Positions 40,161 through 64,000 of a stretch of 64,000 bases of DNA are shown piece after piece. Source of the DNA: Lentisphaerae bacterium ADurb.Bin242 (GTDB taxonomy: Bacteria; Verrucomicrobiota; Lentisphaeria; Victivallales; UBA1829); NCBI GenBank assembly GCA_002069785.1, contig MWCA01000004.1, forward strand, positions 18,050 through 82,049, given 5' to 3'. Positions within the stretch are counted from its first letter, which is position 1, and each line of letters starts with the position of its first letter. The notes beneath the pieces are model-generated. The model did not search any database. It was given only the letters and a program-made list of their open reading frames with translations, and was not told the origin of the DNA. The translations under genes were made by a program, and so were the position numbers.

Positions 40161-42545
40161 TTATTCCTCAAGGCCGTTTACTTTCCAGAATCGCCATTTC
40201 CCGGAATGAGGCGCAATGCGTATCGTTTGGAGCGCAAAAGCAGAAAGTTCTATAACTTCGTCTATTTTGAATACTGCGGAGAAAATTCTCGCGGTGCCCG
40301 GCATCCCGCTGCTTTCCTGCAAGCGTAAAATAAATCCTAATTGATTTTCCGCTTTTTTCCATGCGCAGAATATAGAACCCGAGGATTCCACCTCGAAAAA
40401 CGAAACATGATCCGGTAATGAACCCGGATGCATGGTTTCCATCAACGCGTGTGCCGGATGTTGAAATTCCATAGTCAGTTTATCGAGACGGACCGAATCA
40501 AAAGGCGCCCGCATGACGACCACGAGAATCCGCAGCGCGAAGGCTCCTTGATCAAGGTATTTTTTCCCTTCTTCCAGGCTGTATCTGAAAGCATGATAAC
40601 TGGGGCCCTCCACAGAACGGCGCAATGTCAGGCGGATGCTGGAGTCGGTTGTATCAAAACTGTAAACGCCGCTGTTTATGAGCCCGACAGTACATGGTTC
40701 GCCTTCGTAATCCCCGTTCAAGGCACACCAGCCATGCCCTGAAACTTCCTGCCTGTCCATTGGCCGGACAATGTGTCCATAAGGAGTTTGATATACGGCA
40801 CGCAGATGGCTCATCGCCACGGGAAGCTCGAATTTAAGCAATTGATCCGTTTCCCGCCACTGCCCGTAAATGCTCAGTTCGGTGAGATCGGAACCGGGGA
40901 GCGTGATCATTTCCAGGTTCAGTTCACTTTTCTCGAAAACCCCGCATCTTCTGGTTCTAAACCTGACGGGCCCGCGTTCAAGCACAAATTCATTCTCGAA
41001 GACAACCGGTTTCCACTCTGTCCGGAATGAATCAAGGCCATGGGCGAACACATCGGAGTTATCCGATCCGACAATCAATCCCGGTGGTTTCAGGAAAGCA
41101 CAGCGATCCCACACCGGGGAATGCGGCAGCGGCTCCGGCGGCGGCATTTTCTCCGAACTCAATTCAAGCAATGTATATCCGTACGGAGGCAGAACCGTTT
41201 TGACCAGAAGCTTTTCCCACGGTTTCAGCCACGGGCCGTATGGAGAATCAGCCGGAGCAAACTGAACAGGCATCCTTTCTCCCGAGGAACAGTCCATAAC
41301 GGAGTTTATTGCCGGTCCGCCGGCTCCATCTATCGCCGTGAACATATCGAGCGCCACAATGCTTTCCCGCGGCCATGGCAACGGATTGAAAATAAAAATC
41401 GCATTGTTTTTGAGTTTTGAAGTGTTTACCGCATACGATATCCGGTGAAGGTTTTCGGCCACGATTGTCCTGGCGGCATGAAGAGAAGCGCCCAGCGCTT
41501 CCTCCGCCTCATCATAGCATGCGGCGATGCAAGTGCCGGCAATAATATCATGGAACTGATTGAAGAGCAGGTTTTTCCACGCTTCCTCGAGTTTTTCGCC
41601 AGGGTATTCGACATATCCGAGCTGTTCGGAGAGGACTGCCAGCGTTTCCGCTTCCCGCATGGCGATTTCCGTTCGGCGATTGAGCTCCTTGATCCTGCCG
41701 CATGCGGAATAACACCCGATGTTGTGGGGAACCAGCTCTCCGCGGAACCGCGGCAATACGGAAAGAACGCCATCCTTGTGCAGTTCGGCGAAGAATCCGT
41801 CGAGAGTGCTGAATTTTATAACCGGCAAATCGCGGCAATCGGATAATTCGATTACTTTTCTGATTTGTTCCTCGCCGGGACCGCCGCCATGATCGCCCAA
41901 CCCGATAAAGAGCGCCGTGTGACGGCAGTCCGCCGCGAAATTGTTTTTCGCCGACTGCCGGATCAGAACCTCCAGCGACTGCCGGGTATCATTCGGACCG
42001 GTGGCATAGCCGCCGTACATACGCCAGGTCACAATCTCGGAGCCGTCCGAGGCACACCATCGGAAAAGATGGGGAAAATCCTCGTTCAGCCGCGGTTTGG
42101 AAAATACATAATAATCATATCCGGTACTTTTCAGGATTCGGGGCAGTTCCGCACAGTGCCCGAATGCATCGGGACAGTAGCCGATTTTGACATCGCGGTC
42201 GAAATGATCCCGAATGAACCTCTTCCCGTAAAGCGCTTGCCGGACCAGGCTTTCGCCCGACGGCAGATTGCAGTCCGCCTCCACCCACCATCCGCCGACA
42301 ACTTCCCAGCGTCCCTGACGCACCAGCGTCTGAATCTCGCGGAACAATCCGGGCGCCGATTCCTTGACCCATTGATAGATTACGGCGTTGGAATAGGAGA
42401 ATGTGAGTTGCGGATATTTTTCCATCAGCCGGACGACGGTGGTTACATTATTTAACGCTTCCGACCAACTTTCCCGCCAGCGCCAGAGCCAGGCCAGATC
42501 CAGATGGGCCTGACAAATGACATGAATGGTGTCGGTTTCATTCAT
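40161..42545 (-). CDS. glycoside hydrolase family 38 alpha-mannosidase (no signal peptide)
   Basis: VICQAHLDLAWLWRW, GGWWVEADCNLPSGESLVRQALYGKRF and GYCPDAFGH. Confidence 0.88.
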   Translation of the reverse strand: MNETDTIHVICQAHLDLAWLWRWRESWSEALNNVTTVVRLMEKYPQLTFSYSNAVIYQWVKESAPGLFREIQTLVRQGRWEVVGGWWVEADCNLPSGESLVRQALYGKRFIRDHFDRDVKIGYCPDAFGHCAELPRILKSTGYDYYVFSKPRLNEDFPHLFRWCASDGSEIVTWRMYGGYATGPNDTRQSLEVLIRQSAKNNFAADCRHTALFIGLGDHGGGPGEEQIRKVIELSDCRDLPVIKFSTLDGFFAELHKDGVLSVLPRFRGELVPHNIGCYSACGRIKELNRRTEIAMREAETLAVLSEQLGYVEYPGEKLEEAWKNLLFNQFHDIIAGTCIAACYDEAEEALGASLHAARTIVAENLHRISYAVNTSKLKNNAIFIFNPLPWPRESIVALDMFTAIDGAGGPAINSVMDCSSGERMPVQFAPADSPYGPWLKPWEKLLVKTVLPPYGYTLLELSSEKMPPPEPLPHSPVWDRCAFLKPPGLIVGSDNSDVFAHGLDSFRTEWKPVVFENEFVLERGPVRFRTRRCGVFEKSELNLEMITLPGSDLTELSIYGQWRETDQLLKFELPVAMSHLRAVYQTPYGHIVRPMDRQEVSGHGWCALNGDYEGEPCTVGLINSGVYSFDTTDSSIRLTLRRSVEGPSYHAFRYSLEEGKKYLDQGAFALRILVVVMRAPFDSVRLDKLTMEFQHPAHALMETMHPGSLPDHVSFFEVESSGSIFCAWKKAENQLGFILRLQESSGMPGTARIFSAVFKIDEVIELSAFALQTIRIAPHSGKWRFWKVNGLEE

Positions 42546-42555
42546 TTTTGACGAC

Positions 42556-43482
42556 TTATTTCAGTGCAAGCGATTCAAATGCGCGCCAGTTGTCTATCGT
42601 CAGCCGGATCAGGTCGCGGCAGGTCAGACGGCCTTTGAAAATAGTATTTTTTTCGTTGCCGACAGAAGCCAGCACGCCTTCAAACATAATCGGGCCGGAA
42701 TACTTAATCTCATCAAGCGCCATACATATTTCCGGCCAGTTGATCAATCCCAATCCCGGTGGTAAATGCAAGTCAAAGCGATAAGGAGACGGACTGGTCG
42801 ATATGCACGGCGGCAGGAAGCGGCCGAAATTGTCGTGAAAGTGAGTTTCCCTGAGCCGGGAACCTGCTTTTCTGATGCTGTCGGCGGGATTGCCGCCGGC
42901 CAGAAAGGCGTGGCCGGAATCAATACATATCCCGGTATTGGCGGTTGATGCCATTTCAAGAACTTTTTTCAAAAAATCGAACGATTCGGAATACGTACTG
43001 AAATAGATGTTTTCAAAAACAGGAACGATATTCATTTCTGCGGCATACTCCGCCAAGGCGCTGACTGCGGCGGCATAGTGCGTCATGAATTTTTTCTCTC
43101 CGGCCACTGCGATGGCCTGATCTGTTTCAGGAAAAGGACAATCCCTGAAATGACAGGAATGATAAACAATTCTGGAACTTTCCAGTAATTGCCCCTTCCG
43201 CAACTCCTGTTTTTGAGCGGAGAACAGTTCTTCCGGCAATGGTTGTCCAGGCACGGCGAGAACCGGCAGACAAGAATGCATCGAATACAACTTCAATCCA
43301 TATTCCTTCATTTCATTTTTGAATTCCAGAATCCGGGCTTTGTCCTGTGCCGCGTGCCACGATGTCCCGTCAATCCCCAGCCATCGGACGCCGCCGGCCG
43401 ACAAGTTCTGCATAATCCGGCGACGTTCCCGACTATGGGGATTGATGTAAAACCCTAATTCGCGGTTCATTTGAGGCTCCAT
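42556..43482 (-). CDS. sugar phosphate isomerase/epimerase (xylose isomerase-like TIM barrel)
   Basis: 308 aa. CIDSGHAFLAGGNP and ETHFHDNFG fit the AP_endonuc_2-type fold. Confidence 0.85.
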   Translation of the reverse strand: MEPQMNRELGFYINPHSRERRRIMQNLSAGGVRWLGIDGTSWHAAQDKARILEFKNEMKEYGLKLYSMHSCLPVLAVPGQPLPEELFSAQKQELRKGQLLESSRIVYHSCHFRDCPFPETDQAIAVAGEKKFMTHYAAAVSALAEYAAEMNIVPVFENIYFSTYSESFDFLKKVLEMASTANTGICIDSGHAFLAGGNPADSIRKAGSRLRETHFHDNFGRFLPPCISTSPSPYRFDLHLPPGLGLINWPEICMALDEIKYSGPIMFEGVLASVGNEKNTIFKGRLTCRDLIRLTIDNWRAFESLALK

Positions 43483-43507: not shown

Positions 43508-44344
43508 CTAATGAGACGAAGCGTCTATTTTGACATCATCAACCGCAAGTTTTGCATTGTTGTCCTGCTTGTAATTGACCAGAATCATCACTCGGGCGTA
43601 TTCGCACCCGGCCCACCACTTTCCGGGCTCGATGCGCCCGGGAGAAGACATGCCTTTGATCGTTCCCTTTGCTTCCTGCCATTCCTGCGGGACATGCTTG
43701 TCCGAAACAACATAAATCGCGGACGGGCCATACGAATGTTCCCGGACAGCCGTCCCTTTCGGAAAACCGTCCTTCAGGTTTCGGGTCAGTTTTATGCTCC
43801 AGACGCCATTTTCATTCGTTATGCTCTCGATTCCCATAATGACTTTATTGTTGGGAAGGTCGGCCATCTTTCCCGATGCGTCGATGTCGAAAGCAACGCC
43901 GAATCCCTGTCCTTTTTTCCATTTTTCCGCATTCCGGACTTTGATGGCGTTTGAGCCCGCTGTGCAAGGTTCCAGCAATACGGTTTCAGTTCCCTTGACC
44001 CCATTCACAAACTGAGACTGAATTCGCTCTTTATTCTTGTCGTACGGCACCACGCCGAGAAATACTCTGCTGTTGTCCGAACCAAATGATTTCAACCATG
44101 CCGAAACAATATAGGTTTTTTCTTTATTTACGGGTATGAAAATTTCTGAAATGACTTCCTTGTACCCCCGAACATGAAAACAAAATCGGCCGGAACGGGG
44201 AGCAGAATCGCTGATGCGGTCAAAGCCGGACCATCCTGACAAATTCCCCGTTTCCGCATCCATATTCCCTTCTGCGCCTGGAGCACAAACCGCCGCACAC
44301 ATCCAGGCAAACATCAGCCACGGTTGAAAAATGGATCGTATCAT
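43508..44344 (-). CDS. secreted hypothetical protein, CBM-like; paralog of 57798..58625
   Basis: The track ORF starts at a TTG (44365). I prefer the ATG at 44344, with AAGGAGG 8 nt upstream, giving MIRSIFQPWLMFAWMCAAVCAPGAEG (signal peptide). GNLSGWSGF...FCFHVRG is CBM4/9-like. Confidence 0.7.
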   Translation of the reverse strand: MIRSIFQPWLMFAWMCAAVCAPGAEGNMDAETGNLSGWSGFDRISDSAPRSGRFCFHVRGYKEVISEIFIPVNKEKTYIVSAWLKSFGSDNSRVFLGVVPYDKNKERIQSQFVNGVKGTETVLLEPCTAGSNAIKVRNAEKWKKGQGFGVAFDIDASGKMADLPNNKVIMGIESITNENGVWSIKLTRNLKDGFPKGTAVREHSYGPSAIYVVSDKHVPQEWQEAKGTIKGMSSPGRIEPGKWWAGCEYARVMILVNYKQDNNAKLAVDDVKIDASSH

Positions 44345-44358: not shown

Positions 44359-46176
44359 TCACCAATTGATATAATTGAACGTTTCTTCGAGTATTCGGAT
44401 CCGTTCCATCTGTTTCCGGTCGACTCCGGCATTTTTAGCACGGTTCAAGTTGTCCTTGAAAGCTGCAATGACTTGCGGCGTGTAGACCTTTCCGCTCGGC
44501 TCGACGATGTCTTTGTATTGATTGTCGGGCACCCAGTCGGATTTTTCAACAGCATTCTCGATTGCAAGAAAGATATTCTTCACATAAGGAGCGGCATTGC
44601 CATACATATTCCGGCAATAGTCATCCAGCAGCACGTCGAAATTCTGTCGCGGGTTCCACAACATGCGGGCGCAAAGATAATATTGGAATGTATTGTGCTT
44701 CCAGTATTTGTTATTCGCCTGAGTGTAATACCATTTTACCCCATTATCATTCAAATATCTGAACATATCCCGTATGCGGTATAACACGGGGAGCCAGGCC
44801 ATTTCGTCACCGGTTGCGGACTTCCATTTGCCGTTCTCCCATCCTCCTTCCTTTCCAAGCATGAAATATTCCCATACGCCAATACATCTTGCCGCCTTGC
44901 GCCATTCCAGCAAATCGCGGTTTCTCTCTATGCTTTTGATGGATTTTGTTTTATCGATCGACCTTGCATAATCCACATGGAGACAAAGCTGCACGACAAT
45001 GTTTTTTTCCAGTGGAATATCGGTAACGGGTTTTTTGTACTCATGATACGACGGCATAAGGATGAATTTTCCGGGATGTTTCCGGCCGACGCGCCTGGCC
45101 ACTTCATTGACAAAAACCACCAGCCGTCTGGTCATGGAACCCTGTTCGCCTTCCACATCATTGATTCCGCCATATTTTGAACATTCGGCGCATTCGCACC
45201 ATTTGATGTTTCCATCCATGGGCCACATGGGAACAACAAGTCCGTCGGGATGTTTGTCAAACCAGTCCATGGCAAATTGGGAACACAAGTCAATCACATC
45301 CGGATTGGTCAGGCACAAATTGCCTCCGTGCCAGGTGATCCTGGTCGGAGTGTCCTGGGGAATGCGTTTGCCTTTATATAATGCAAAGTACTCCGGATGG
45401 GATGAAAAATATTTATCCGAAGAAATGATCACGTCGAAATTATGGACATTTGACTGCCATTTCTGCATCCGGAGCACGTCAAGCAAGTCCCGGTCTTCGA
45501 CAGACAACTCTTTCAAATGCTCGGGCCGTATATGCGCGTTACAGTTCAAGCGGTTTCTTGCGGACCACAATATCGCCTCTTTCAGCCCGAATGGATTGTT
45601 CGGGCTTATGTGAAGCTCCCGCTGTATGAATGCCGGAGAATTCTTAACAGTTCCTGCCGGAAGCGTTATGCTCTTCAGGGCCGGAATGACTTCTCCCGCC
45701 GCGCCGGGAAAATACCAGCGGACGCCGCATTTTTCCAGAAATTCATAGACGCTGTAGAGTGTCCCGCGGTCACCTCCGCCGACAAAAATTGCCGCGCCGG
45801 GACCTATATCGATCACAAAACTGTCATTGTTCTCTTCGAGTTGAGCACAATCCGCGACCTCTTTGTTCCATTGTGAATGGAAGGCTTCGGCCCGGACCGT
45901 TTTTCCCAGAAATATCGTAAATCCATTTCCAGCCCCTTCCTTTCCGGGTCCTTCCGCCTCCCGGATAACCGGCACTTCCCGCCCCGTCATTTTACCGATA
46001 TACTGCCGCAATTCACCCGCTGCAAACACTTCCGTTTTCGAAGGAGCGGCAGGGATACATATCTTGATTCCGGCAAGATCTATTTTCTGCAACGGGGGTT
46101 CGGCTGCAAACATATTGCAGCAAAAAACAGTCATGGCTCCTGTTGATAAAATCGCACCGAACAATAAAGACCTCAT
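44359..46176 (-). CDS. secreted DUF4838-like putative glycoside hydrolase
   Basis: Trimmed to the ATG at 46176, with GGAG upstream (MRSLLFGAILSTGAMTVFCCNMFAAEP). The motif GDRGTLYSVYEFLEKCGVRWYFPG recurs in 59277..62240. Confidence 0.8.
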   Translation of the reverse strand: MRSLLFGAILSTGAMTVFCCNMFAAEPPLQKIDLAGIKICIPAAPSKTEVFAAGELRQYIGKMTGREVPVIREAEGPGKEGAGNGFTIFLGKTVRAEAFHSQWNKEVADCAQLEENNDSFVIDIGPGAAIFVGGGDRGTLYSVYEFLEKCGVRWYFPGAAGEVIPALKSITLPAGTVKNSPAFIQRELHISPNNPFGLKEAILWSARNRLNCNAHIRPEHLKELSVEDRDLLDVLRMQKWQSNVHNFDVIISSDKYFSSHPEYFALYKGKRIPQDTPTRITWHGGNLCLTNPDVIDLCSQFAMDWFDKHPDGLVVPMWPMDGNIKWCECAECSKYGGINDVEGEQGSMTRRLVVFVNEVARRVGRKHPGKFILMPSYHEYKKPVTDIPLEKNIVVQLCLHVDYARSIDKTKSIKSIERNRDLLEWRKAARCIGVWEYFMLGKEGGWENGKWKSATGDEMAWLPVLYRIRDMFRYLNDNGVKWYYTQANNKYWKHNTFQYYLCARMLWNPRQNFDVLLDDYCRNMYGNAAPYVKNIFLAIENAVEKSDWVPDNQYKDIVEPSGKVYTPQVIAAFKDNLNRAKNAGVDRKQMERIRILEETFNYINW

Positions 46177-49163: not shown

Positions 49164-49174
49164 AAGGAGAAATC

Positions 49175-54949: not shown

Positions 54950-54951
54950 AG

Positions 54952-55770: not shown

Positions 55771-57801
55771 ATGAATCATGAAATGTGGATTTGGACGGAA
55801 CTTCTGGCGTTTGACCGCGAGAAGCCGGACTACGGAGTGGAAGAATATCTGGAACGGATCGGATTTCCGGTGAACGGAATTACGTTTCTGCTTTCCAGCA
55901 TGGATTTCATCCTGCTTCACGACGGCATGGAAAAAGAGCATGTCCTTTTTCCGGACGTCTGTTCGCGTCAGGGGCATGAGGAAAACGAGGAGCGCAAACG
56001 CCAGGAGTGGACGAATTACGAGCTGCGCGGCCTGATTGCCGGACTGAAGAAACACGGGATCAAAGTGTTCTGCTCCATTTTCATCCTGAACATGCACGAC
56101 CGTTACCACAAGGAATGGGGGACGGCCCATCCCGAACTCCGGATGGGCGATAAAATCCACGGGATCGACAACGCGTTTTCCATGCTGGCGCGCCTGAAAG
56201 ACGGAACCCTGTTCGAAGACTTCTTTCTCGAAAGACTTTCCAAAGTCATCCCGGACTACGATTTCGACGGCTGGCACGGGCCCGACGGGCAGGGACCGGG
56301 CTGGAACCTGACGCATTCCGACAGTTCGGACCAGTTCGTTTTCCAGTTCGCGGAATATCTCGGGGACGGGGTCCTGCCCGCCGAATTCCTGCGGGAAATG
56401 GACAACTCCGAGGCGGAAATGGCGCGAAGGCTGGACTACATCTGGAAGAACTTCAACCGCGAATGGGCGGACTTCACCTCGAAACGCTGGGTTTCTCTGT
56501 GGACGAAGGCCGCCCATGCCATGCACGCCCTGGGCCGGGAAATCATGATCAACTCGCCGTTCGCCAAATCGATCTTCGAATCCATCTTTTATTTCGGGCT
56601 GGACTACCGTGCGCTCGCCGGCGTCGGAATCGACTACGTAGTCGTGGACACGGTCTCCACAAGCATGGCGCTGATTGCGGGCGAGCCGGAAAGGATTTTC
56701 GATTACCGGGGCTCGCTGGCCGAGTTCAAAGCCTGTATGCCGGACGCCAAACTGATTTTTCTCGATCCCGTCAAAGACGTGCTGGAAAACTGGGACGCCC
56801 TGCGGCACGCCCCCGCCCGGCTCGAACGGGACACGTGGCTGCTTGCCAACGAAACGATCCTCCGGCACGGAGAACTGGTCCGATGCGCCGACGGACTCCT
56901 GACCTGTGTGGGGGATGGAATCAACCGCTATGAATGGGCCCAGCTCGGGAAGATGTATGCCAACGCCTATTCGATGGAAAGCCGTGAAAGCGGGGAGATG
57001 CTCTGGCTCTGCGATCCCGGAATTTTCGATCCGCTGCGGGACGACCACCGGAAGCACGGCACATGGCCGCCCTATCACATCGTTTCGCAGCTGGTGGAAA
57101 CACAGGGGCTCGACATCTCCAGCGCATGCACCCCGGAAAGCCTCGATTCCCTGGCGCGTCCGCTGTTGGTGCCAGGCTTCGATCTGCTGGGGGACTCCGT
57201 CAAACGGACACTTCTGTCCAAAAAGGGAATGCCGGTCGTGCTGATCGGAAACTTCCTCTCCGAAGCCGTGCCCTCGGACGCCGACGGCGTGTTCTGCACG
57301 CTTCATGACGGATACCGGATCGGATGCGTCATCCTGAACGGAACGGGTATTCGCATTCCGATGGAACCGGCGGAAGGACTTCCTGAATTCAGCTGGCTGG
57401 AATACAACCGTTTTGTCCGCAACCGCTGTCCGCGGATGAGCATCCCGGAAGCCTTCTGGGATGCCGCCGGCAAACTGATCCGCTCCCGTCTGCCGGAAAG
57501 CCCCCTGCGCAACGGCGGCAAAGGCATCCGCATGGCGCGGCTGAAAAACGCTTCCGGCGTCGAACAGATCGCTTTGTATTCCACGAAGGAGATCTATACG
57601 ACGCCCGAATACAGTCTGCCGGAGGGCGTCCGCATCCGGAAACGGTGCGGGTTTCCCTTCTCTCCCTTCGAGAGAAGGGGCGGGCGGCTTTCCCTGCCGG
57701 ATTCCCGCTGGAAAATCTGCATTCCGCCGTTTGGAATGATTCTTTTTGAAACCGATTCAACCAATGGAAACAACGACGTTTCACAAGGGAGAGAACCATG
57801 A
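55771..57801 (+). CDS. hypothetical protein (676 aa, no signal peptide), possibly a glycoside-hydrolase-like TIM barrel
   Basis: MNHEMWIWTELLAFDREKPDYG...GLKKHGIKVFCSIF...DFDGWHGPDGQGPGW. The amino-acid composition is protein-like, unlike the antisense ORF 55729..57306. Confidence 0.7.
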   Translation: MNHEMWIWTELLAFDREKPDYGVEEYLERIGFPVNGITFLLSSMDFILLHDGMEKEHVLFPDVCSRQGHEENEERKRQEWTNYELRGLIAGLKKHGIKVFCSIFILNMHDRYHKEWGTAHPELRMGDKIHGIDNAFSMLARLKDGTLFEDFFLERLSKVIPDYDFDGWHGPDGQGPGWNLTHSDSSDQFVFQFAEYLGDGVLPAEFLREMDNSEAEMARRLDYIWKNFNREWADFTSKRWVSLWTKAAHAMHALGREIMINSPFAKSIFESIFYFGLDYRALAGVGIDYVVVDTVSTSMALIAGEPERIFDYRGSLAEFKACMPDAKLIFLDPVKDVLENWDALRHAPARLERDTWLLANETILRHGELVRCADGLLTCVGDGINRYEWAQLGKMYANAYSMESRESGEMLWLCDPGIFDPLRDDHRKHGTWPPYHIVSQLVETQGLDISSACTPESLDSLARPLLVPGFDLLGDSVKRTLLSKKGMPVVLIGNFLSEAVPSDADGVFCTLHDGYRIGCVILNGTGIRIPMEPAEGLPEFSWLEYNRFVRNRCPRMSIPEAFWDAAGKLIRSRLPESPLRNGGKGIRMARLKNASGVEQIALYSTKEIYTTPEYSLPEGVRIRKRCGFPFSPFERRGGRLSLPDSRWKICIPPFGMILFETDSTNGNNDVSQGREP

Positions 57802-58762: not shown

Positions 58763-58787
58763 ATAATTAAACCAAATATCGGAAGTT

Positions 58788-59216
58788 ATGGAAAAATCAA
58801 CGAAAAAAGACCAGAAAGCCAAGCTGCGGAAGAATCTCCTGACGCTCATCAACGAGTATTCTCTGGCGGGCCGGCTTCCTTCGGAACGCGATCTGGCGGC
58901 TACCTTGGGAGTCACCCGTTATCTGCAAAGCCGGGATTTTCTTCTCGGTAAACTGATTGAAGCCGGATGTTCCCGGATTGCCTATGTTGCCATCGATTCA
59001 TGTTACCGGGACTCTCTCAAACGCGCGCTTTCGTCCCTGGGGGTTGAGTGGGACGATTCCATGTGGGTCAGCAATGTGGCGGATATTGATGAAAAACTGT
59101 CGGGGATTTTCCGGGCCGCCGGACCGGATACAGAACAGTTTCTTTTCCGTCGCATCCGTACAAAAGAAGTGGAGCCGGGGAAAAACAATCAGGGTGAAGA
59201 AGTCGCCCGGCCTTGA
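58788..59216 (+). pseudogene. probable remnant of a GntR-HTH/PBP hybrid regulator (142 aa with an internal deletion and C-terminal truncation)
   Basis: RLPSERDLAATLGVTR is the first half of a GntR HTH. The sequence then jumps directly into a PBP-like segment (LGKLIEAGCSRIAYVAIDS...LSSLGVEW). That segment aligns with the middle of the 355-aa regulator at 46923..47990 (LVKCGYTRIYFIQAEN...MKRNGM). Confidence 0.45.
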
Positions 59217-59276: not shown

Positions 59277-62240
59277 TTAATGTCCAGCGCTTGATCCGGA
59301 TTTCTTCTTCGGAAGAATTTCTTTTGTCGATACCGATACCCGGACTTCCTTCACGCAGAGCCGGGATTCTTTGTCCACCCCGAAAAACGGCCGGAAATCC
59401 GTGACGACCTCGTTTTTCGTGTCGGGAACCGGAATGGAAACGATGTAATCCGCGGATTTCTCCGTCAGCGTAATCCGGCGGTTCTGAAACACCGGTCCCC
59501 CCCGGGGGGAATCCGGGAAATGCGAATATCCGATGAGCCCGGCAAACGCCGTCCCTTTCCCGTATGCGCCGATCAATTGGATCGTGACGGTGTTGAGCGA
59601 AGAAACGGGAAAAGTCCGGGATGAAAAAAGATAGGTGAGGGCCGGCGGATCCGTGGACAGGCGCAGGCCGGCGGAAGTCGATTCGATCTTCGTATTCTTT
59701 GCAGCGGCGTTCAGCGGATACCAGTATTTGCGCACATCAAAAGACTCCGTGAATACGCTGGAAACCTCCTTCACCCCGGGAGCCCCCCCCGCAAGCCGGA
59801 CACGCCCCATCCGGTAGATTCCTTCCAGATACGAATCCGTGAAGAGCGGACTCCATGACAGATTCGGAGCTTCGCATCTTGTCCGCAGGATGTTCATGAA
59901 GAAGGAGTCCCCAGAACCCGTCTTCCGGTCCGGAATGAGCCTGTCCAGCGGCAGGGCAAGGAGAAAACTCCAGTCTTTTCCGCACTCATTGGAGAGGAGC
60001 TTTGCCCCGATGTCGCTGCGCCCGGTTCTGACCACTCCGTTGACCGTCTCGCTGCGATAATTTTCCACAAGCCCGGCGGGCGTGACCAAAAGATGGTTGT
60101 AAGGCATTTGCCTCTGTGCTGCAAGGAAGATTTCCACGTTGTTACGCCACTTATCGTCAGACATCTTTCCGGAACGGATGTTTCTCTCATGAAATCCGAC
60201 ATACAGGAAGGAACTGTCATGAGCCATGGAAATCTCTATATCGTCATTTCCCGCCTCATTGTCCAGGGTTCTCAGCCGGACCGGCTGGCCGGGAAACACC
60301 GTCCGTGCCATTTTCGGAGAGGCCGGGTCGGCATTTCCGACCTCGGGGACAAAGCACTCCGGAGTCGGGACTTTTCGCAGGAGCTCGCGTTTCTCGAAAT
60401 CCTTGCGTCCCTCCATCATCTGCCGGTGAATTGTTCTGTCGAACCATTCAAGCCGCTTTTCCGCCGGAGTTCCCTTCGCCTTCCTCTGCGCCGTCCGGAA
60501 AAGCGCATCCAGCGCGGCAAGCCGGGAAGGGGTTCCAAGGGACCAGTTCACGGCCTCCTTCTGCATGTAAAGCATATAGGCGGTGTCCGGCCGGACCGGG
60601 ATCATTCCGGCATAAGAATCCGACCAGAATGCTTTGTTTATAATGGTAAAGTATTCCTTCATCTCATCGGCGGCAGGGCCGTAATACAGGGGATAGAACT
60701 CATCCAGAGCTTTTTTCCCATCGATCGAGGGATCGTCGCAAACCTTGGCCGCAAAGTACGCTTCAAGGAAATTGTACTGAACAAAAATCTCGCCGAACCA
60801 GCCCCGGATTCCGTCCTTCGCGAATTTCTTGAAAATGTCGATCGTCTGAGCCGGATAAAAAGACGGGAAGAACTTATGATAAGCGTTATGTCCGTTGGCC
60901 TCGAAGGCTGGACTCAGCATATATGTCCAGAGGAAAAGTTCTCCGTCCTTTTTCGCATAGTTTTCCAGCCAGGAGTCATAAATCTTCATCGCCTCCTCCC
61001 GGAACTTCGGATGGTAGAACCCCTGGACTCCGATGCAGAGCTGCACCGTGACGTTTTTCGCGATGGAGAGGTCGGGATACCACGGGACCCCGTATGCCAA
61101 GGTCGCGATCCCGATTTCCGGATGCTTCTTCGCGGCTTCGCCCGCAACGGAATTCACCCATGCGAAATGATAACGGACTTTTCTTTCGAGTTCGCTTTTA
61201 TCCTTCCAACAGTTCATCAGCGAGGCGCAGTTTCCGCACAGGCAGATCAAGTGGTTGTCATCCTCCTGGATCATGTACGTGAACCGGCAGCCGGGAAGCT
61301 TTCTGGGAGAGAAAGGAGCCCCCTTCACCGGCTTTCCCTCATAAAAGGAAACCGCTTCCTCCGCATAATAGCGGATCGTTTCCGGATTCGTCTGGCACAG
61401 TTGCGGCGGCAAGTCCGGGTCATCCGGCCAATGCCACTTCCGAAGGCCCATCGGAGCGAACTTTCCCTGATACCCCTGCGCAAAAAGTTCGGGACGGCTC
61501 CGGATGAAAAGGTCCGCGTAGTACTTTGAGGCGGAGGGTTTCCAGTAACGGAAATAAATGCTGAAAGTGTTGTGGTTGACCTGTCCGTAAAGAATGTTGG
61601 CGCGCCAGCGCAGAAGAGTGAGGTGCTTATCCCGTGCGGAAAACCCGTGCCGCTCGCCTCCTGACCAGTTCGGATAACGCATGGCTTCCATGAAGGGATG
61701 TCGACGGATATTGTACGGCTGTACTATGAGAGTCGGGTTTTTCCGGAAAGCAATCCCCATATCTCCCGGCTGATAGAAACGTACTCCGCAACACTTCTCC
61801 AGGAAATCATAAACCGCATAAAGGGTCGAGTGCAAGTCGTATTGACAGGACGGAAAGGTTTTCTCGTCGGAATAGGAAACGGTTCCGAAATCCGGGAGAT
61901 CGTTTCCGACCATGGCGATCCAGTCCAGCCCGAACTTCAATTCGTATTCTTCCCGGCTGAAACCCTTCGGATCAATTCCGGACATTTCCGTGAAGGAGGA
62001 ATTCCCCACGAAGATTTTCAGCCCGGACGCCGGCAGCTTTCCTTTCAGGATTGGAAGTTCCGCTCCGGTTATAAGCTGGACGACATGCCGGAGTTCATAC
62101 GCTCCCAGCTGTGCCGCCCGGGTCGGTTTTTCCGCAAGGACAATGGACGCCTCCGTTTTGCCGTCCATTACCAGCGAATAGTCCGTGGCCGAAACCGCTG
62201 AGGAAAGAATCGCCATCCAAGTCAAACACAAACGCAACAT
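59277..62240 (-). CDS. secreted DUF4838-like putative glycoside hydrolase with C-terminal beta-sandwich/CBM-like extensions (987 aa)
   Basis: Trimmed to the ATG at 62240, with GGGAGG 4 nt upstream (MLRLCLTWMAILSSAVSA). STLYAVYDFLEKCCGVRFYQPG parallels the motif in 44359..46176. Confidence 0.8.
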   Translation of the reverse strand: MLRLCLTWMAILSSAVSATDYSLVMDGKTEASIVLAEKPTRAAQLGAYELRHVVQLITGAELPILKGKLPASGLKIFVGNSSFTEMSGIDPKGFSREEYELKFGLDWIAMVGNDLPDFGTVSYSDEKTFPSCQYDLHSTLYAVYDFLEKCCGVRFYQPGDMGIAFRKNPTLIVQPYNIRRHPFMEAMRYPNWSGGERHGFSARDKHLTLLRWRANILYGQVNHNTFSIYFRYWKPSASKYYADLFIRSRPELFAQGYQGKFAPMGLRKWHWPDDPDLPPQLCQTNPETIRYYAEEAVSFYEGKPVKGAPFSPRKLPGCRFTYMIQEDDNHLICLCGNCASLMNCWKDKSELERKVRYHFAWVNSVAGEAAKKHPEIGIATLAYGVPWYPDLSIAKNVTVQLCIGVQGFYHPKFREEAMKIYDSWLENYAKKDGELFLWTYMLSPAFEANGHNAYHKFFPSFYPAQTIDIFKKFAKDGIRGWFGEIFVQYNFLEAYFAAKVCDDPSIDGKKALDEFYPLYYGPAADEMKEYFTIINKAFWSDSYAGMIPVRPDTAYMLYMQKEAVNWSLGTPSRLAALDALFRTAQRKAKGTPAEKRLEWFDRTIHRQMMEGRKDFEKRELLRKVPTPECFVPEVGNADPASPKMARTVFPGQPVRLRTLDNEAGNDDIEISMAHDSSFLYVGFHERNIRSGKMSDDKWRNNVEIFLAAQRQMPYNHLLVTPAGLVENYRSETVNGVVRTGRSDIGAKLLSNECGKDWSFLLALPLDRLIPDRKTGSGDSFFMNILRTRCEAPNLSWSPLFTDSYLEGIYRMGRVRLAGGAPGVKEVSSVFTESFDVRKYWYPLNAAAKNTKIESTSAGLRLSTDPPALTYLFSSRTFPVSSLNTVTIQLIGAYGKGTAFAGLIGYSHFPDSPRGGPVFQNRRITLTEKSADYIVSIPVPDTKNEVVTDFRPFFGVDKESRLCVKEVRVSVSTKEILPKKKSGSSAGH

Positions 62241-62364: not shown

Positions 62365-63063
62365 TCACATGTTGAAATTCGGGATCAGGATATCGGAAGC
62401 AAAAACAGTGTTCAGGATTTTTCCTCCCCAATACCCCGATGCCGGAAAAGAGCCCGCCTTTCTGGATTCGGAATGACCGTCGTTGAAGAGGACAGTCGCA
62501 TAAAGGCTGTGCCGGCTGAAGCACGGGGCATGCGCCACATTCTTGGCCCCCACGTATGTTTCCGGATGTTTCCCGTTTTCGATCAGCATGTATGACTGGG
62601 AGGGACTCTTCAGGTCAGAGAAACGGAGATAGTCCCGCGAGGCCCCGTTATTTTTGAGCGAATCTGCGAAAAGATATGGGTTCAGGCCGTAGTAAACATG
62701 CCTGTCGTTGTAGTCCAGAGAGAACAGCGGAGGCGGAATCAGCGGACACTGAAAAACACGGAAATAAGCGGAAGTGCTGGTCGACCCGGACCGGATATAT
62801 GTGACAAGAAGATCGTTGAAATAATAAGCTTTCGCGGGATTGGAAAACCTGCCTGCCAGATGTCCTCCGTTGTCGCTTGCATAGAGGATCTGTGCTTTCC
62901 CGATTTGAATGGAGTTGTTCATGCATGAAATCTTCTGAGCGACGGCACGGGCCTTCTGCAGCGCCGGCAGCAGCAACCCCGCAAGAATGGCAATGATTGC
63001 TATAACGATCAGGAGCTCGATCAGTGTGAATGGAGACATTTGTCCGGTTTTCATTTCATTCAT
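62365..63063 (-). CDS. prepilin-type N-terminal cleavage/methylation domain protein (pseudopilin-like)
   Basis: [47 protein letters not shown]. Confidence 0.85.
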
Positions 63064-64000
63064 GGCGCAGAATCCTTTTGTTGTTGATGAAGTTCACATC
63101 GAGTTTTTCCTTAAGTTTGGGATGATCACATGGCGGAATCGCAGACTCCCCCTTGATGAATTTTGCTTCGAAAAAGCACGTAAAGTCGGAGGTATGCTGC
63201 TCCGAGCCTTTCGTGAAAAGGTATTTCAGCATGGCTTGCACCGTTTTCTCCGCCGGGACCTCCCTCAGACAGGTGAACCTTGGCGTACGCTCAAAAAGGA
63301 AACTGCCGTCTCCGTAAACAATCATCGAGATATCCTCGGGAATTCGGACACCCGCACGAAGCAGGGCGGACTCCGTAAGGATTGCCACGGACGGATCGAC
63401 ACAACAAAGCGCGGTCGGCAGGGTACTCCTGAGAAAATCCAGAAATTCGACCGCATTGAAATTCTTGCGGAAGACCTGCCGCGGACCGCACCGGAGTCCG
63501 TGCCGCTTCATCCCCTCCAGAAATCCCCTGTAGCGAAGAATGGTTGTCTCATGCACGCATTCGCCGCAGGCAAAGGCAATACGCCGATGCCCCAGGTCAT
63601 GCAGATAATCAACCATCTTGCCCATATTCAGGACATTGTCACTGTCGACAACCGGAAAATCCAGAAACCGCTGGATCGAATCGTTGAAAATCATTTTCAT
63701 TCCGTAACGCCGGGCAATCCCAGCCAACCGGGAGCAGTCCGGCTCCTTGTTACAGTAGCAGATGACATATTGAATCTGATTCGCATTGATCTCCCGGAAA
63801 ATCTGCTCGAAGTCCGTGCCACAGTAGACCCTCACCCCGTATCCGGCCTGATTGACAGCCCGGATGGACTGAAACAGATAGCTCTGATAGGAATAGTTGT
63901 AAGGATTCACATCGACGGTGATGGCAGCGATCGTGGAGGTGTTGATTCCCTTGCGGATGGTGGCCGCGGAGATGTTGGTTTGATATCCCATTTCGGCGGC
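63056..64000 (-). CDS. LacI family transcriptional regulator, partial (the N-terminal HTH lies beyond the window end)
   Basis: The frame stays open through 64000 (..[31 protein letters not shown]). This is the LacI hinge (elgY.pN..Ar.L) and is followed by a PBP domain. Confidence 0.8.

What the first reader, a model, noticed from the sequence alone, without database searches (positions are those of the whole stretch)
40161..64000. Recurrent regulator + pilin-like protein + large hydrolase cassettes with no transporter: a possible pilin-dependent glycan utilisation system
Seen: three contiguous loci share one architecture. Locus B (minus strand) runs GntR/PBP regulator 46923-47990, pilin-like 46209-46904, DUF4838-like 44359-46176, CBM-like 43508-44344, sugar-phosphate isomerase 42556-43482 and GH38 40161-42545. 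Locus C (plus strand) runs LacI 48162-49163, secreted paralogs of 815 and 828 aa, two pilin-like genes (54155-54949 and 54966-55745), a 676-aa cytoplasmic protein and a CBM-like protein at 57798-58625. Locus D (minus strand) runs LacI 63056-64000, pilin-like 62365-63063 and a DUF4838-like 987-aa protein at 59277-62240. A minimal version lies at 1469-5311 (AraC, pilin-like, secreted hydrolase). Across these ~24 kb I see no ABC, MFS, PTS, TonB-dependent or SusCD-type transporter. Yet GH38, the isomerase and the 676-aa protein lack signal peptides, so substrate must enter the cell somehow. The only membrane-anchored component in each locus is the pilin-like protein. Established: the FTLIELL...Glu5 N-terminus is the signature of type IV pilins and T2SS pseudopilins, and large expansions of such genes exist in PVC phyla. 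Inference: each pilin-like paralog could be a substrate-specific module of a shared pilus or pseudopilus machine. It might capture or import the glycan, or it might secrete the neighbouring hydrolases. As far as I know this role has not been characterised mechanistically.
Basis: partly seen in the sequence, partly recalled or inferred. Interest (0 to 1): 0.75.

Follow-up and report, generated by a model that had tools for sequence, protein, structure and literature searches.

The report
Pilin-like genes inside sugar-regulated enzyme operons
A Lentisphaerae genome repeatedly places a pilin-like gene from a very large family of unknown function between a sugar-sensing regulator and secreted glycan-degrading enzymes, which gives that family a testable role in glycan capture or enzyme handling at the cell envelope, though not as a replacement for a membrane transporter.

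Summary
Window 40161-64000 holds three tightly packed operon-like cassettes, and 1469-5311 holds a fourth. Each combines a LacI, GntR or AraC regulator, one or two pilin-like genes, and secreted proteins. The secreted proteins include two DUF4838 enzymes (the catalytic domain of glycoside hydrolase families GH163 and GH185). Cassette B also has a cytoplasmic GH38. No transporter lies in this stretch, and two more cassettes lie just outside the window.

The pilin-like proteins belong to the known but uncharacterised DUF1559 / H-X9-DG prepilin-like family, found in Planctomycetota, Verrucomicrobiota, Lentisphaerota and a few other phyla. Their first ~60 residues match type IV pilins and the secretion pseudopilin GspG. 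Their heads are near-orphans, rich in Trp, Tyr and Asn, with no fold match in the PDB.

Across 80 loci, regulators sit immediately upstream of the pilin-like gene (16/72 against 4/216) and large proteins immediately downstream (22/63 against 19/216). The full regulator-pilin-enzyme pattern is specific to Lentisphaerota.

Related cassettes carry sodium:solute symporters in the same gene string. One close orthologous cassette lacks the pilin-like genes entirely.

Pilus-linked glycan uptake already has precedents in Akkermansia and in planctomycetes. I rate this a new variant of a known kind, interest about 0.6.

The parts
1469..2359 (-). AraC-family regulator of the minimal cassette, divergent from the pilin-like gene
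   Evidence: Pfam HTH_18 1e-21, HTH_AraC, AraC_binding
2470..3252 (+). Pilin-like gene (FTLIELL N-terminus, no exact H-X9-DG motif)
   Evidence: TIGR02532 21.2 bits against cut-off 16.3; motif scan
3260..5311 (+). Secreted protein of about 683 aa, function unknown; start codon uncertain
   Evidence: Signal-peptide-like N-terminus; no Pfam, NCBIfam or PDB sequence hit
40161..42545 (-). GH38 alpha-mannosidase, no signal peptide; last gene of cassette B
   Evidence: Pfam Glyco_hydro_38N 4e-64, Alpha-mann_mid, GH38C; no hydrophobic N-terminus
42556..43482 (-). Xylose-isomerase-like TIM-barrel protein, cytoplasmic
   Evidence: Pfam AP_endonuc_2 2e-24
43508..44344 (-). Small secreted protein; weak CBM_4_9 hit; paralog of 57798-58625
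   Evidence: CBM_4_9 19.6 bits, below cut-off 25.9; 28% identity over 201 aa to 57798
44359..46176 (-). Secreted DUF4838 protein (catalytic domain type of GH163/GH185)
   Evidence: Pfam DUF4838 5e-52; the domain is catalytic in GH163 BT1035 and GH185 Sp_0475 (PMC10570127)
46209..46904 (-). Pilin-like DUF1559 / H-X9-DG protein of cassette B
   Evidence: SBP_bac_10 40.7 bits (cut-off 23.3) and N_methyl 29.1; [12 protein letters not shown] motif; AlphaFold2 model with helix 9-59 plus a small beta-sheet
46923..47990 (-). GntR helix-turn-helix plus LacI-type sugar-binding domain regulator; first gene of cassette B
   Evidence: Pfam GntR 5e-13, Peripla_BP_3 3e-20; 18-nt gap to the pilin-like gene
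48034..48150 (.). Divergent control region: a 12/12 sigma-70 consensus promoter on the minus strand (48061..48034), a 10/12 promoter on the plus strand (48104-48131), and an operator-like palindrome TTGTTACTCGAGCAACAA (48133-48150)
   Evidence: consensus matches only, function not shown
48162..49163 (+). LacI-family regulator; first gene of cassette C
   Evidence: Pfam LacI 8e-9, Peripla_BP_3 1.5e-18
49172..51622 (+). Secreted protein of about 816 aa, function unknown; paralog of the next gene
   Evidence: 44% identity over 793 aa to 51641-54127; only a weak CBM_4_9 hit
51641..54127 (+). Secreted 828-aa protein of unknown function, from a small family
   Evidence: Only 24 homolog clusters, those named being Lentisphaerae; no PDB sequence hit
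54155..54949 (+). Pilin-like DUF1559 / H-X9-DG protein, first of a tandem pair
   Evidence: SBP_bac_10 26.1 bits; H-X9-DG motif
54966..55745 (+). Pilin-like DUF1559 / H-X9-DG protein, second of the tandem pair
   Evidence: SBP_bac_10 25.6 bits; first 60 codons 93% nucleotide-identical to 54155, the rest about 52%
55771..57801 (+). 676-aa protein of unknown function, without a signal peptide
   Evidence: No Pfam, NCBIfam or PDB hit; orthologs follow the pilin-like gene in L087 and follow the 828-aa ortholog directly in L088
57798..58625 (+). Small secreted protein, paralog of 43508-44344
58788..59216 (+). Truncated copy of a GntR-type regulator gene (probable pseudogene remnant), preceded by a 12/12 consensus promoter at 58735-58762
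   Evidence: First ~45 aa nearly identical to the 371-aa GntR just beyond the window; promoter scan
59277..62240 (-). Secreted 987-aa DUF4838 protein of cassette D
   Evidence: Pfam DUF4838 1e-17
62365..63063 (-). Pilin-like H-X9-DG protein of cassette D
   Evidence: TIGR02532 21.6 bits; [12 protein letters not shown] motif; start overlaps the regulator's stop by 8 nt
63056..64000 (-). LacI-type regulator of cassette D, cut by the window end (full length 357 aa)
   Evidence: Peripla_BP_3 1.4e-19; full gene with LacI helix-turn-helix seen on the source contig

Best explanation
**What it is.** These are sugar-inducible catabolic operons of a Lentisphaerae bacterium. A one-component sugar-binding regulator (LacI, GntR or AraC type) heads or faces each operon. 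In cassettes B and D and in the minimal cassette the first structural gene is a pilin-like protein of the DUF1559 / H-X9-DG family; in cassette C the pair sits mid-operon. Secreted glycan-active proteins follow or flank it, and in cassettes B and C also enzymes or proteins without a signal peptide.

**How it most likely works (inferred).**
- The invariant type IV pilin-like helix alpha1 (F1, E5, P22) inserts the protein into the inner membrane.
- This helix most likely lets the protein enter a shared type-4-filament machine, either a type II secretion pseudopilus or a type IV pilus-like fibre.
- The head is specific to each cassette. It is disulfide-braced and rich in Trp, Tyr and Asn. I propose that it binds the cognate glycan and holds or hands it over at the cell envelope, where the co-expressed secreted enzymes act.
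- Entry into the cytoplasm is by ordinary carriers. Some related cassettes encode sodium:solute symporters in cis; for the window's cassettes the carrier must be encoded elsewhere.

**Shown here:** family membership, operon-like packing, enrichment and fixed gene order of the neighbours, and conservation of the N-terminus against near-orphan heads.

**Inferred:** filament incorporation, glycan binding, co-induction.
For: - N-terminus: a family profile matches solved type IV pilins and GspG over alpha1 only (6xxd PilA E=9e-17, 5wda GspG 5.5e-8).
- F7 to L30 is invariant in 47 sequences from several phyla. P22 is present in 90 of 91 copies.
- Structure: AlphaFold2 gives a helix of about 51 residues plus a small beta-sheet.
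- A conserved Cys42 / Cys113-Pro pair fits an extracytoplasmic, disulfide-bonded head (the disulfide is inferred).
- Head composition: Trp+Tyr 8.4% against 4.3% in background proteins, Asn 6.7% against 3.4% (p about 1e-39 and 1e-37).
- Head sequence: only 6 relatives at E<=1e-3 among 1.84 billion representative proteins. The full-length protein has more than 7,900 relatives.
- Operon packing: gaps of -8 to 32 nt, with one of 124 nt. Promoters and an operator-like palindrome lie in the divergent region.
- Context over 80 loci: regulator immediately upstream in 16/72 against 4/216 distal genes (p=1e-7), and 0/63 downstream. The downstream neighbour is >=600 aa in 22/63 against 19/216 (p=2e-6), and signal-peptide-like by a crude hydropathy test in 34/63 against 64/216 (p=5e-4).
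- Independent Pfam check of neighbours against distal genes: Peripla_BP_3 in 10/98 against at most 1/149.
- In Lentisphaerota, 14 of 31 pilin-like genes have a regulator immediately upstream (p=2.5e-7).
- Genes downstream in the operons include DUF4838 (four times), GH43, rhamnosidase, polysaccharide lyase, GH123_N, a heparinase-like protein and CBM9.
- Position is conserved at 43-53% identity: in L087 one pilin-like gene sits between the orthologs of the ~816-aa and 676-aa proteins.
- Seven pilin-like genes, all in such cassettes, lie within about 90 kb of the source contig and a near-identical contig.
- Precedents for pilus-mediated glycan binding or uptake in related phyla.
Against: - No experiment or expression data.
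- I could not check whether the source genome has a prepilin peptidase, an assembly ATPase, a platform protein or a secretin.
- The residue before Phe is C, N, N, P or V in the window. It is Gly or Ala in only 2 of 33 Lentisphaerota copies, against 55 of 58 in other phyla. Canonical cleavage, and hence filament assembly, is therefore doubtful in this very lineage.
- The head models are only moderately confident (pLDDT 72-75). They match no lectin, carbohydrate-binding module, solute-binding protein or pilin head in the PDB.
- Aromatic-rich composition is only suggestive of sugar binding.
- The orthologous cassette L088 works without any pilin-like gene.
- Pilin-like genes next to DUF4838 enzymes do not cluster with one another, so there is no visible co-evolution between head and enzyme.
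Confidence: 0.4

Rival explanations
1. Secretion adaptor. The pilin-like protein is a cassette-specific pseudopilin of a type II secretion system. It recognises the co-encoded enzymes, which carry Sec signal peptides, and pushes or carries them through the secretin, possibly tethering them on the surface. It does not bind glycans.
For: The N-terminus is GspG-like. Downstream neighbours are enriched for large proteins with signal-peptide-like N-termini. One neighbour in the 98-protein sample is a T2SS protein F. A per-operon adaptor would address how hundreds of unrelated enzymes are recognised for secretion (inference).
Against: Known type II systems use one generic major pseudopilin. Scores are far below the GspG cut-off (24-32 bits against 88.85). 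Heads next to the same enzyme family (DUF4838) are unrelated. In L087 and in the window, the pilin-like gene directly precedes the 676-aa protein, which has no signal peptide. L088 keeps both secreted paralogs without a pilin-like gene.
Confidence: 0.2
2. Membrane-anchored binder that is not in a filament. In Lentisphaerota the leader is not cleaved, or is cleaved unconventionally. The protein then stays as an inner-membrane-anchored periplasmic glycan-binding or scaffold protein. This would resemble the sugar-binding proteins of the Sulfolobus bindosome, which carry class III signal peptides.
For: The canonical Gly/Ala before Phe is lost specifically in Lentisphaerota (2/33 against 55/58, p=1e-18). 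Pfam and an older paper label DUF1559 as a solute-binding protein family. The bindosome precedent is PMC3047682. Sodium:solute symporters occur in the same operons in relatives, so a binder could feed a carrier.
Against: A plain membrane anchor would not need F1, E5 and P22 to stay invariant across phyla and paralogs. The head shows no solute-binding-protein fold in the PDB search. The bindosome proteins work with ABC transporters, and none is adjacent here.
Confidence: 0.2
3. The pilin-like protein or pilus replaces a transporter and brings the glycan into the cell for the cytoplasmic enzymes.
For: No transporter lies in about 45 kb of cassette DNA, including the flanks outside the window. 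GH38, the TIM-barrel protein and the 676-aa protein lack signal peptides.
Against: Type-4 filaments do not move cargo across the inner membrane (established knowledge: in DNA uptake a separate channel, ComEC, does that). Related cassettes encode sodium:solute symporters beside the pilin-like gene. Transporters can simply be encoded elsewhere, and 132 kb of this contig plus the rest of the genome were not seen.
Confidence: 0.03
4. Incidental adjacency. An abundant, fast-evolving surface-protein family and the enzyme cassettes both pile up in accessory genome regions, with no shared function. The heads might vary under pressure from phages or predators.
For: The heads are near-orphans. The tandem pair shows homogenisation of the 5' end. 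A regulator remnant shows that the region is rearranged. L088 lacks the pilin-like genes.
Against: The gene order is fixed: regulators are upstream in 16/72 and downstream in 0/63. Stop and start codons overlap or lie within 32 nt. The position is conserved in L087 at about 50% identity. Regulator frequency falls with distance in genes: 11% at one gene, 4% at two, about 1% at five or more.
Confidence: 0.07

Closest known systems
DUF1559 (Pfam PF07596 'SBP_bac_10') / TIGR04294 H-X9-DG prepilin-like family of Planctomycetota, Verrucomicrobiota and Lentisphaerota
   Same: Prepilin-type N-terminus followed by a head of about 170-250 aa with a Cys...Cys-Pro pair and H-X9-DG near the C-terminus. There are dozens of paralogs per genome: 68 in Planctopirus limnophila and 74 in Rhodopirellula baltica. 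Three window copies pass the Pfam cut-off.
   Different: Nothing structural; the window genes are members. What is added here is a consistent genomic context in Lentisphaerota (regulator, then pilin-like gene, then glycan-active enzymes). I found no paper describing it in the searched library.
Type II secretion major pseudopilin GspG and type IVa major pilins
   Same: Helix alpha1 with F1, E5 and P22; profile matches to PilA and GspG structures.
   Different: The head is unrelated and about twice as large. Scores are far below the equivalog cut-offs. The genes are scattered in catabolic operons rather than in gsp or pil operons. The residue before Phe is not Gly in Lentisphaerota.
Akkermansia mucin utilisation loci (pili implicated in mucin import) and the type IV-like pilus MUL2 of Akkermansiaceae
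   Same: The phylum is related. A pilus-like system is tied to binding or uptake of complex glycans.
   Different: That is one dedicated locus with PilM and an archaeal-type pilin (Amuc_1099-1102), not one paralog per enzyme operon. No PilM lies in the window. Homology of the proteins was not tested.
Planctomycete crateriform-structure fibres that bind dextran (Boedeker et al. 2017)
   Same: Related phylum rich in DUF1559. Pili-like fibres bind a polysaccharide that ends up in the periplasm.
   Different: The fibre subunits are unknown, and no link to DUF1559 or to enzyme operons was made.
Sulfolobus bindosome (sugar-binding proteins with class III signal peptides)
   Same: A pilin-type signal is used to deploy sugar-handling proteins at the cell surface (PMC3047682).
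   Different: It is archaeal. The proteins are true solute-binding proteins that function with ABC transporters. Here no solute-binding fold was found and no ABC transporter is adjacent.
Bacteroidota polysaccharide utilisation loci (SusC/SusD type)
   Same: The logic is the same: regulator, envelope glycan-binding component and enzymes in one inducible locus.
   Different: No SusC/SusD pair and no TonB-dependent transporter. The anchoring principle is different.
Caldicellulosiruptor bescii type IV pilus regulated by xylan
   Same: Pilus expression responds to a polysaccharide in a bacterium that degrades plant biomass (bioRxiv 10.1101/614800; title and abstract only).
   Different: It is a Gram-positive organism with a single canonical pilus.

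Membership tests
Type IV pilin / pseudopilin superfamily (class III signal peptide) | Phe at +1 and Glu at +5 of the mature protein | tested here: met
   FTLIELL in all 5 window copies; Phe in 120 of 120 homologs; E11 invariant in alignment A1
Type IV pilin / pseudopilin superfamily (class III signal peptide) | Hydrophobic alpha1-N of about 20 residues with Pro22, homologous to solved pilins | tested here: met
   Pro22 in 90 of 91 copies; profile against PDB gives PilA 9e-17 and GspG 5.5e-8; TIGR02532 at 20.3-22.1 bits against cut-off 16.3
Type IV pilin / pseudopilin superfamily (class III signal peptide) | Gly (rarely Ala) at -1, the prepilin peptidase cleavage site | tested here: not met
   Window copies have C, N, N, P and V. 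Lentisphaerota copies have Gly or Ala in 2 of 33, other phyla in 55 of 58
Type IV pilin / pseudopilin superfamily (class III signal peptide) | Long alpha1 helix packed against an antiparallel beta-sheet head | tested here: inconclusive
   AlphaFold2 gives helix 9-59 plus 5-6 short strands at pLDDT 72-75. Foldseek finds no significant PDB match; the best is a type IVb pilin at E=0.42
Type IV pilin / pseudopilin superfamily (class III signal peptide) | Processing by a PilD/GspO peptidase and assembly by an ATPase, platform protein and secretin encoded in the same genome | not testable with these tools
   Only about 85 kb of the source genome was reachable. None of these genes lies in the window
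DUF1559 (PF07596) / H-X9-DG (TIGR04294) | Score above the Pfam PF07596 gathering cut-off (23.3 bits) | tested here: met
   46209: 40.7 bits; 54155: 26.1; 54966: 25.6. The copies at 62365 and 2470 give no hit, so they are assigned by N-terminus and motif only
DUF1559 (PF07596) / H-X9-DG (TIGR04294) | H-X9-DG motif near the C-terminus, C-terminal to the prepilin domain | tested here: met
   Exact motif in 4 of 5 window copies and in the copy just beyond the window. The TIGR04294 model scores 16.8-17.0 bits, just under its cut-off of 19. In the model the motif forms a beta-hairpin with high pLDDT
GspG (TIGR01710, major pseudopilin equivalog) | Full-length match above the 88.85-bit cut-off | tested here: not met
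   24-32 bits, covering the first ~55-60 positions of the model only
Bacteroidota-type polysaccharide utilisation locus | Adjacent SusC-like TonB-dependent transporter and SusD-like protein | tested here: not met
   No such Pfam hits in any window gene
Akkermansia MUL2-type pilus locus | PilM plus an archaeal-type pilin, in synteny with Amuc_1099-1102 | tested here: not met
   No PilM hit among the window genes. Direct comparison with the Amuc proteins was not done
Bindosome-type class III sugar-binding proteins | Solute-binding-protein fold working with an ABC transporter | tested here: not met
   No solute-binding fold among the Foldseek matches. No ABC transporter genes in the cassettes

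The most novel reading that the evidence does not exclude
The hundreds of DUF1559 / H-X9-DG paralogs in Planctomycetota, Verrucomicrobiota and Lentisphaerota could be interchangeable, substrate-specific subunits of one retractile type-4 filament. Each sugar-responsive operon would load its own glycan-binding head onto the shared machine. The filament would then reel the cognate polysaccharide, or enzyme-glycan complexes, through a secretin into the periplasm. This would be these phyla's counterpart to SusCD / TonB-dependent uptake in Bacteroidota. It would also explain planctomycete fibre-mediated dextran uptake and the purpose of the largest paralog group in Planctopirus limnophila.
Probability: 0.18. 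Interest if true: 0.88.

Novelty: new variant of a known kind. Interest (0 to 1): 0.6.

Why it matters
DUF1559 / H-X9-DG proteins are among the largest paralog families in Planctomycetota, Verrucomicrobiota and Lentisphaerota. There are 68 in Planctopirus limnophila, its biggest paralog group, with two of them essential. Their function is unknown.

These phyla are major degraders of complex and sulfated glycans. The loci examined here show no Sus-type outer-membrane uptake genes. How large glycans cross the outer membrane remains unresolved in planctomycetes.

In Lentisphaerota these genes are wired behind sugar-sensing regulators and in front of glycan-active enzymes. That turns a vague family into a testable hypothesis, because each cassette names its own regulator, head and enzymes. 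It also links to the pilus-dependent mucin and fucoidan handling reported for Akkermansiaceae.

The loss of the canonical cleavage-site residue in one phylum is a second concrete puzzle, about how these proteins are processed.

Tried and rejected
- **Fold searches.** Foldseek against the PDB gave no significant match for either the full-length model or the head-only model. The 'solute-binding protein' label of PF07596 therefore could not be confirmed, nor could a lectin-like, carbohydrate-binding or GspG-like head.
- **Head-only sequence search.** A search of 1.84 billion representative proteins gave only 6 hits. This was useless for building a deeper alignment, though informative in itself.
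- **PDB sequence searches** with the 828-aa, 676-aa and ~683-aa proteins and the 987-aa DUF4838 protein gave no hits.
- **Head-enzyme co-evolution.** Pilin-like genes beside DUF4838 enzymes are barely more similar to each other than to the rest (p=0.049, driven by one tandem pair). None has another DUF4838-adjacent copy from a different genome as a clear best hit. I rejected this as evidence.
- **Closest homolog.** The nearest relative (P0002, 52% identity) lies on a 4.3-kb contig with unrelated neighbours, so it is uninformative for synteny.
- **PADLOC** scan of the unannotated ORFs at 17.6-23.4 kb and two others found nothing.
- **Operator search.** The palindrome at 48133-48150 occurs only once in the window.
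- **Literature.** Searches for 'H-X9-DG', 'DUF1559', Victivallis plus prepilin, and 'prepilin-type N-terminal cleavage' plus polysaccharide found no paper on this family's role in glycan use.
- **Secretion or pilus machinery.** I could not reach the rest of the source genome to look for it.

Full report
**1. Source and layout**

The window is part of a 195,846-bp contig (JAKJHI010000010.1, assembly GCA_022703945.1). It corresponds to record positions about 18,948-82,947. The 100%-identical protein is named in NCBI as coming from the MAG 'Lentisphaerae bacterium ADurb.Bin242'.

Positions 5.9-40 kb hold housekeeping genes and no sugar transporter. They include ValRS, HisRS, Mfd, sigma-70, DAHP synthase, LptF/G and GDP-mannose dehydratase-type genes. 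The finding's region and the minimal locus at 1.4-5.3 kb are the only places in the window with pilin-like genes.

**2. Check of the observation**

Pfam confirms the following:
- GH38 at 40161-42545.
- A xylose-isomerase-like TIM barrel at 42556-43482.
- DUF4838 at 44359-46176 and at 59277-62240.
- A GntR-HTH / Peripla_BP_3 regulator at 46923-47990.
- LacI at 48162-49163.
- A LacI-type binding domain at 63056-64000, cut by the window end. The full protein is 357 aa and has the LacI helix-turn-helix.
- AraC at 1469-2359.

DUF4838 is the catalytic domain of GH163 and GH185, and is distantly related to GH20 (PMC10570127). GH163 is represented by BT1035, an endo-hexosaminidase that cleaves GlcNAc-beta-1,2-Man in complex N-glycans. 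GH185 is a 6-sulfo-GlcNAcase. Cassette B (DUF4838 plus GH38 plus a TIM-barrel enzyme) is therefore plausibly aimed at N-glycan-like or mannose/GlcNAc-containing substrates. That is an inference.

- 'CBM-like' rests on CBM_4_9 hits below the cut-off.
- The secreted paralogs of about 816 and 828 aa are 44% identical. They, the 676-aa protein and the ~683-aa protein have no significant Pfam, NCBIfam or PDB sequence match. Calling them hydrolases is unproven.
- The 828-aa family has only 24 clusters in 5.8 billion proteins; the few that carry an organism name are Lentisphaerae.

A simple hydropathy scan finds no protein with several membrane-spanning segments in 40161-64000. It also confirms signal-peptide-like N-termini on the DUF4838 proteins, the two large paralogs and the two small paralogs. 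GH38, the TIM-barrel protein and the 676-aa protein have none.

Gaps between genes inside the cassettes run from -8 to 32 nt, with one of 124 nt. The 171-nt divergent region between cassettes B and C contains three features:
- a perfect 12/12 sigma-70 consensus promoter facing the GntR gene;
- a 10/12 promoter facing the LacI gene;
- a unique 18-nt palindrome between that promoter's -10 element and the LacI start codon.

These are consensus matches, not proof of function.

**3. More cassettes outside the window**

Just past the window end, the source contig carries a GntR-type regulator (371 aa), then a 235-aa pilin-like protein with H-X9-DG, then a 994-aa DUF4838 protein.

Just before the window start, a near-identical 60-kb Logan contig carries an AraC gene, then a GFO_IDH_MocA oxidoreductase, a 267-aa pilin-like protein and a 1,459-aa GH42-like secreted protein.

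So at least seven pilin-like genes lie in about 90 kb. All sit in such cassettes, and still no transporter appears.

**4. What the pilin-like proteins are**

*Family.* Three of the five pass the Pfam cut-off for DUF1559 (PF07596, 'SBP_bac_10'). All five pass TIGR02532, the prepilin-type N-terminal domain. Four have an exact H-X9-DG motif, and the TIGR04294 model scores just under its cut-off. Public sources name close homologs 'prepilin-type processing-associated H-X9-DG protein' or 'DUF1559 domain-containing protein'.

Published counts are 68 paralogs in Planctopirus limnophila (its largest paralog group, function unknown, two essential; PMC10632474) and 74 in Rhodopirellula baltica (PMC2754498).

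*N-terminus.* An alignment of 47 members shows F7 to L30 invariant. Nearly everything else varies, apart from Cys42, Cys113-Pro, Tyr56, Asp59, and His189, Asn194 and Gly200 of the H-X9-DG motif. A profile of this alignment matches solved type IV pilins and GspG only over helix alpha1 (Thermus PilA E=9e-17, GspG 5.5e-8). Scores against the GspG equivalog model are far below its cut-off.

*Structure.* AlphaFold2 models have pLDDT 72-75. They show a helix of about 51 residues and a small beta-sheet, with H-X9-DG forming a well-predicted beta-hairpin. Neither the full model nor the head alone has a significant structural neighbour in the PDB.

*Head.* The head alone (176 aa) has only six relatives at E<=1e-3 among 1.84 billion representative proteins. 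Heads of paralogs in this genome are essentially unrelated to each other, except for the tandem pair at 41% identity. Heads are strongly enriched in Trp, Tyr, Asn and Gly and depleted in charged residues. That composition is compatible with sugar binding but is not proof.

**5. Is the genomic association general?**

A scan of one genome per species returned 80 loci (1.06 Mb). They come from Lentisphaerota, Verrucomicrobiota, Planctomycetota, Omnitrophota and a few other groups. I called genes with a self-trained codon model: 789 genes, of which 91 are pilin-like.

*Pfam on neighbours.* Among 98 immediate neighbours, Peripla_BP_3 occurred in 10, GntR in 8, Laminin_G_3 in 5, DUF4838 in 3, sulfatase in 2, heparinase-like in 2 and AraC in 2. 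Among 149 genes at least five genes away, none of these families reached two members. Fisher's test gives p=5e-4 and 3e-3 for the two regulator domains.

*Gene order.* I built my own iterated profiles for the regulators and scored positions:
- A regulator is the upstream neighbour in 16 of 72 cases, against 4 of 216 distal genes (odds ratio 15, p=1e-7). It is never the downstream neighbour (0 of 63).
- The downstream neighbour is at least 600 aa in 22 of 63 cases, against 19 of 216 (p=2e-6).
- The downstream neighbour is signal-peptide-like in 34 of 63 cases, against 64 of 216 (p=5e-4). This used a crude hydropathy test.

*Phylum specificity.* In Lentisphaerota, 14 of 31 pilin-like genes have a regulator directly upstream and 14 of 26 have a large protein directly downstream. 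In other phyla the figures are 2 of 45 and 8 of 37.

*Operon content.* The 34 proteins downstream of pilin-like genes in Lentisphaerota operons include DUF4838 (four times), GH43, an alpha-rhamnosidase, a polysaccharide lyase, GH123_N, a heparinase-like protein and CBM9. They also include two sodium:solute symporters. Two cases are verified:
- L015 reads regulator, pilin-like gene, a 1,047-aa Laminin_G_3/GH123_N protein, DUF4838, then an SSF symporter.
- L003 reads two pilin-like genes followed by an SSF symporter.

**6. Conservation and dispensability**

Orthologs of cassette C tell two stories.

In L087 (43-53% identity), one pilin-like gene sits between the orthologs of the ~816-aa and 676-aa proteins. 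This is the same relative position as in the window.

In L088 (67-74% identity), the order is LacI, the ~816-aa ortholog, the 828-aa ortholog, then the 676-aa ortholog. There is no pilin-like gene and no ortholog of the small secreted protein.

The association is therefore conserved over long distances, but the pilin-like component can be lost from a cassette.

**7. An unexpected feature**

In 58 pilin-like genes from non-Lentisphaerota loci, the residue before the invariant Phe is Gly (35) or Ala (20). That is the canonical prepilin peptidase site.

In 33 Lentisphaerota copies it is Arg, Ser, Lys, Thr, Pro and others. Only two are Gly and none is Ala (p=1e-18). Their leaders are often just 'MKK' or 'MKRKP'. 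The window copies have C, N, N, P and V.

F1, E5 and P22 remain invariant. Either the Lentisphaerota peptidase has relaxed specificity, or these proteins are not cleaved. The data cannot decide between these. The question bears directly on whether the proteins can enter a filament.

**8. Interpretation**

The best-supported reading is that these are sugar-inducible operons in which a cassette-specific pilin-like protein is co-expressed with extracytoplasmic glycan-active proteins.

The contrast between an invariant alpha1 and a near-orphan, aromatic-rich, probably disulfide-braced head fits a common handle on a variable working end. The handle would serve membrane insertion and, probably, a shared type-4-filament machine. 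I favour glycan capture or hand-over at the envelope (confidence about 0.4).

The rivals are:
- a secretion adaptor for the neighbouring enzymes (about 0.2);
- a membrane-anchored binder that is not in a filament, as in the Sulfolobus bindosome (about 0.2; PMC3047682);
- incidental adjacency (about 0.07).

- Type-4 filaments act in the periplasm and across the outer membrane. This is established knowledge; in natural competence, for example, DNA needs ComEC to cross the inner membrane.
- Relatives encode SSF symporters in the same gene strings.
- Most of the genome was not visible.

**9. Comparison with what is known**

Membership in DUF1559 / H-X9-DG is met. Membership in the type IV pilin superfamily is met for the alpha1 features, fails for the Gly at -1, and is untestable for processing and assembly. 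The proteins are not GspG equivalogs. The loci are not Sus-type loci and do not have the Akkermansia MUL2 synteny.

Functionally, the nearest precedents are:
- the pilus-linked mucin import of Akkermansia;
- the type IV-like pilus reported to mediate attachment to fucose-rich glycans in Akkermansiaceae (PMC13174399);
- dextran-binding fibres of planctomycetes (PMC5394234);
- the xylan-regulated pilus of Caldicellulosiruptor.

In the searched library I found no paper tying DUF1559 / H-X9-DG paralogs to regulator-enzyme cassettes. The library does not cover most subscription-journal papers.

**10. Verdict**

The feature is real and statistically supported. It is a lineage-specific variant of a known theme, involving a known but functionally blank family. 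Interest is about 0.6.

The most novel reading not excluded is that the paralogs are exchangeable glycan-specific subunits of one retractile filament, serving as this group's alternative to SusCD uptake. I give that about 0.18 probability.

Noticed in passing
L002-L081 pilin-like genes; window 46887-46889, 54188-54190, 54999-55001, 63028-63030, 2545-2547 (codons for residue -1): The canonical Gly/Ala before the invariant Phe of the prepilin motif is present in 55 of 58 copies from Planctomycetota, Verrucomicrobiota and other phyla. It is present in only 2 of 33 Lentisphaerota copies, where leaders are often just MKK or MKRKP. F1, E5 and P22 stay invariant. This suggests a lineage-specific change in processing.
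   Followed up: partly
window 54128-55745: The tandem pilin-like pair shares an identical ribosome-binding region. The first 60 codons are 93% nucleotide-identical, with 93% identical codons among identical residues, while the rest is about 52% identical. This looks like gene conversion or homogenisation of the 5' end with divergent heads.
   Followed up: yes
window 58735-59216: A 142-aa ORF is a truncated, rearranged copy of the 371-aa GntR-type regulator that lies just beyond the window end (first ~45 aa nearly identical). A perfect TTGACA-16-TATAAT promoter precedes it. It is a remnant of cassette rearrangement.
   Followed up: partly
window 48133-48150: A unique 18-nt palindrome, TTGTTACTCGAGCAACAA, lies between a promoter-like -10 element and the LacI start codon. 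It is a candidate operator, and no second copy occurs in the window.
   Followed up: partly
window 17597-23360: Four consecutive plus-strand ORFs (830, 403, 115 and 493 aa) have no Pfam or PADLOC hits. They partly coincide with a dip in G+C (0.49 at 20-24 kb, against 0.54-0.60 in the five preceding 4-kb windows and 0.59 in the next). This may be a horizontally acquired island inside the housekeeping stretch.
   Followed up: partly
window 38800-40070: Two adjacent genes for a split chromate-transporter (ChrA-like) pair lie directly next to the end of cassette B. They are the only polytopic membrane proteins near the cassettes and are unlikely to carry sugars.
   Followed up: no
window 51641-54127 and 49172-51622: The two large secreted paralogs belong to a very small family: 24 clusters in 5.8 billion proteins, and the few with an organism name are Lentisphaerae. 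They have weak CBM_4_9-like ends and an unannotated core, so they are candidates for a new glycan-active enzyme family. One distant relative carries PF14307.
   Followed up: partly
L042 (contig CAZMAZ010000247.1): A 2.3-kb contig binned as 'uncultured Clostridium sp.' encodes a typical FTLIELL pilin-like protein of the kind found in Planctomycetota, Verrucomicrobiota and Lentisphaerota. It is probably a binning error.
   Followed up: no
L083 1-10000 (source contig beyond window end) and L085 10900-20550 (before window start): Two further cassettes flank the window. One reads GntR, 235-aa H-X9-DG pilin-like protein, 994-aa DUF4838 protein. The other reads AraC, GFO_IDH_MocA, 267-aa pilin-like protein, 1,459-aa GH42-like secreted protein.
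   Followed up: yes
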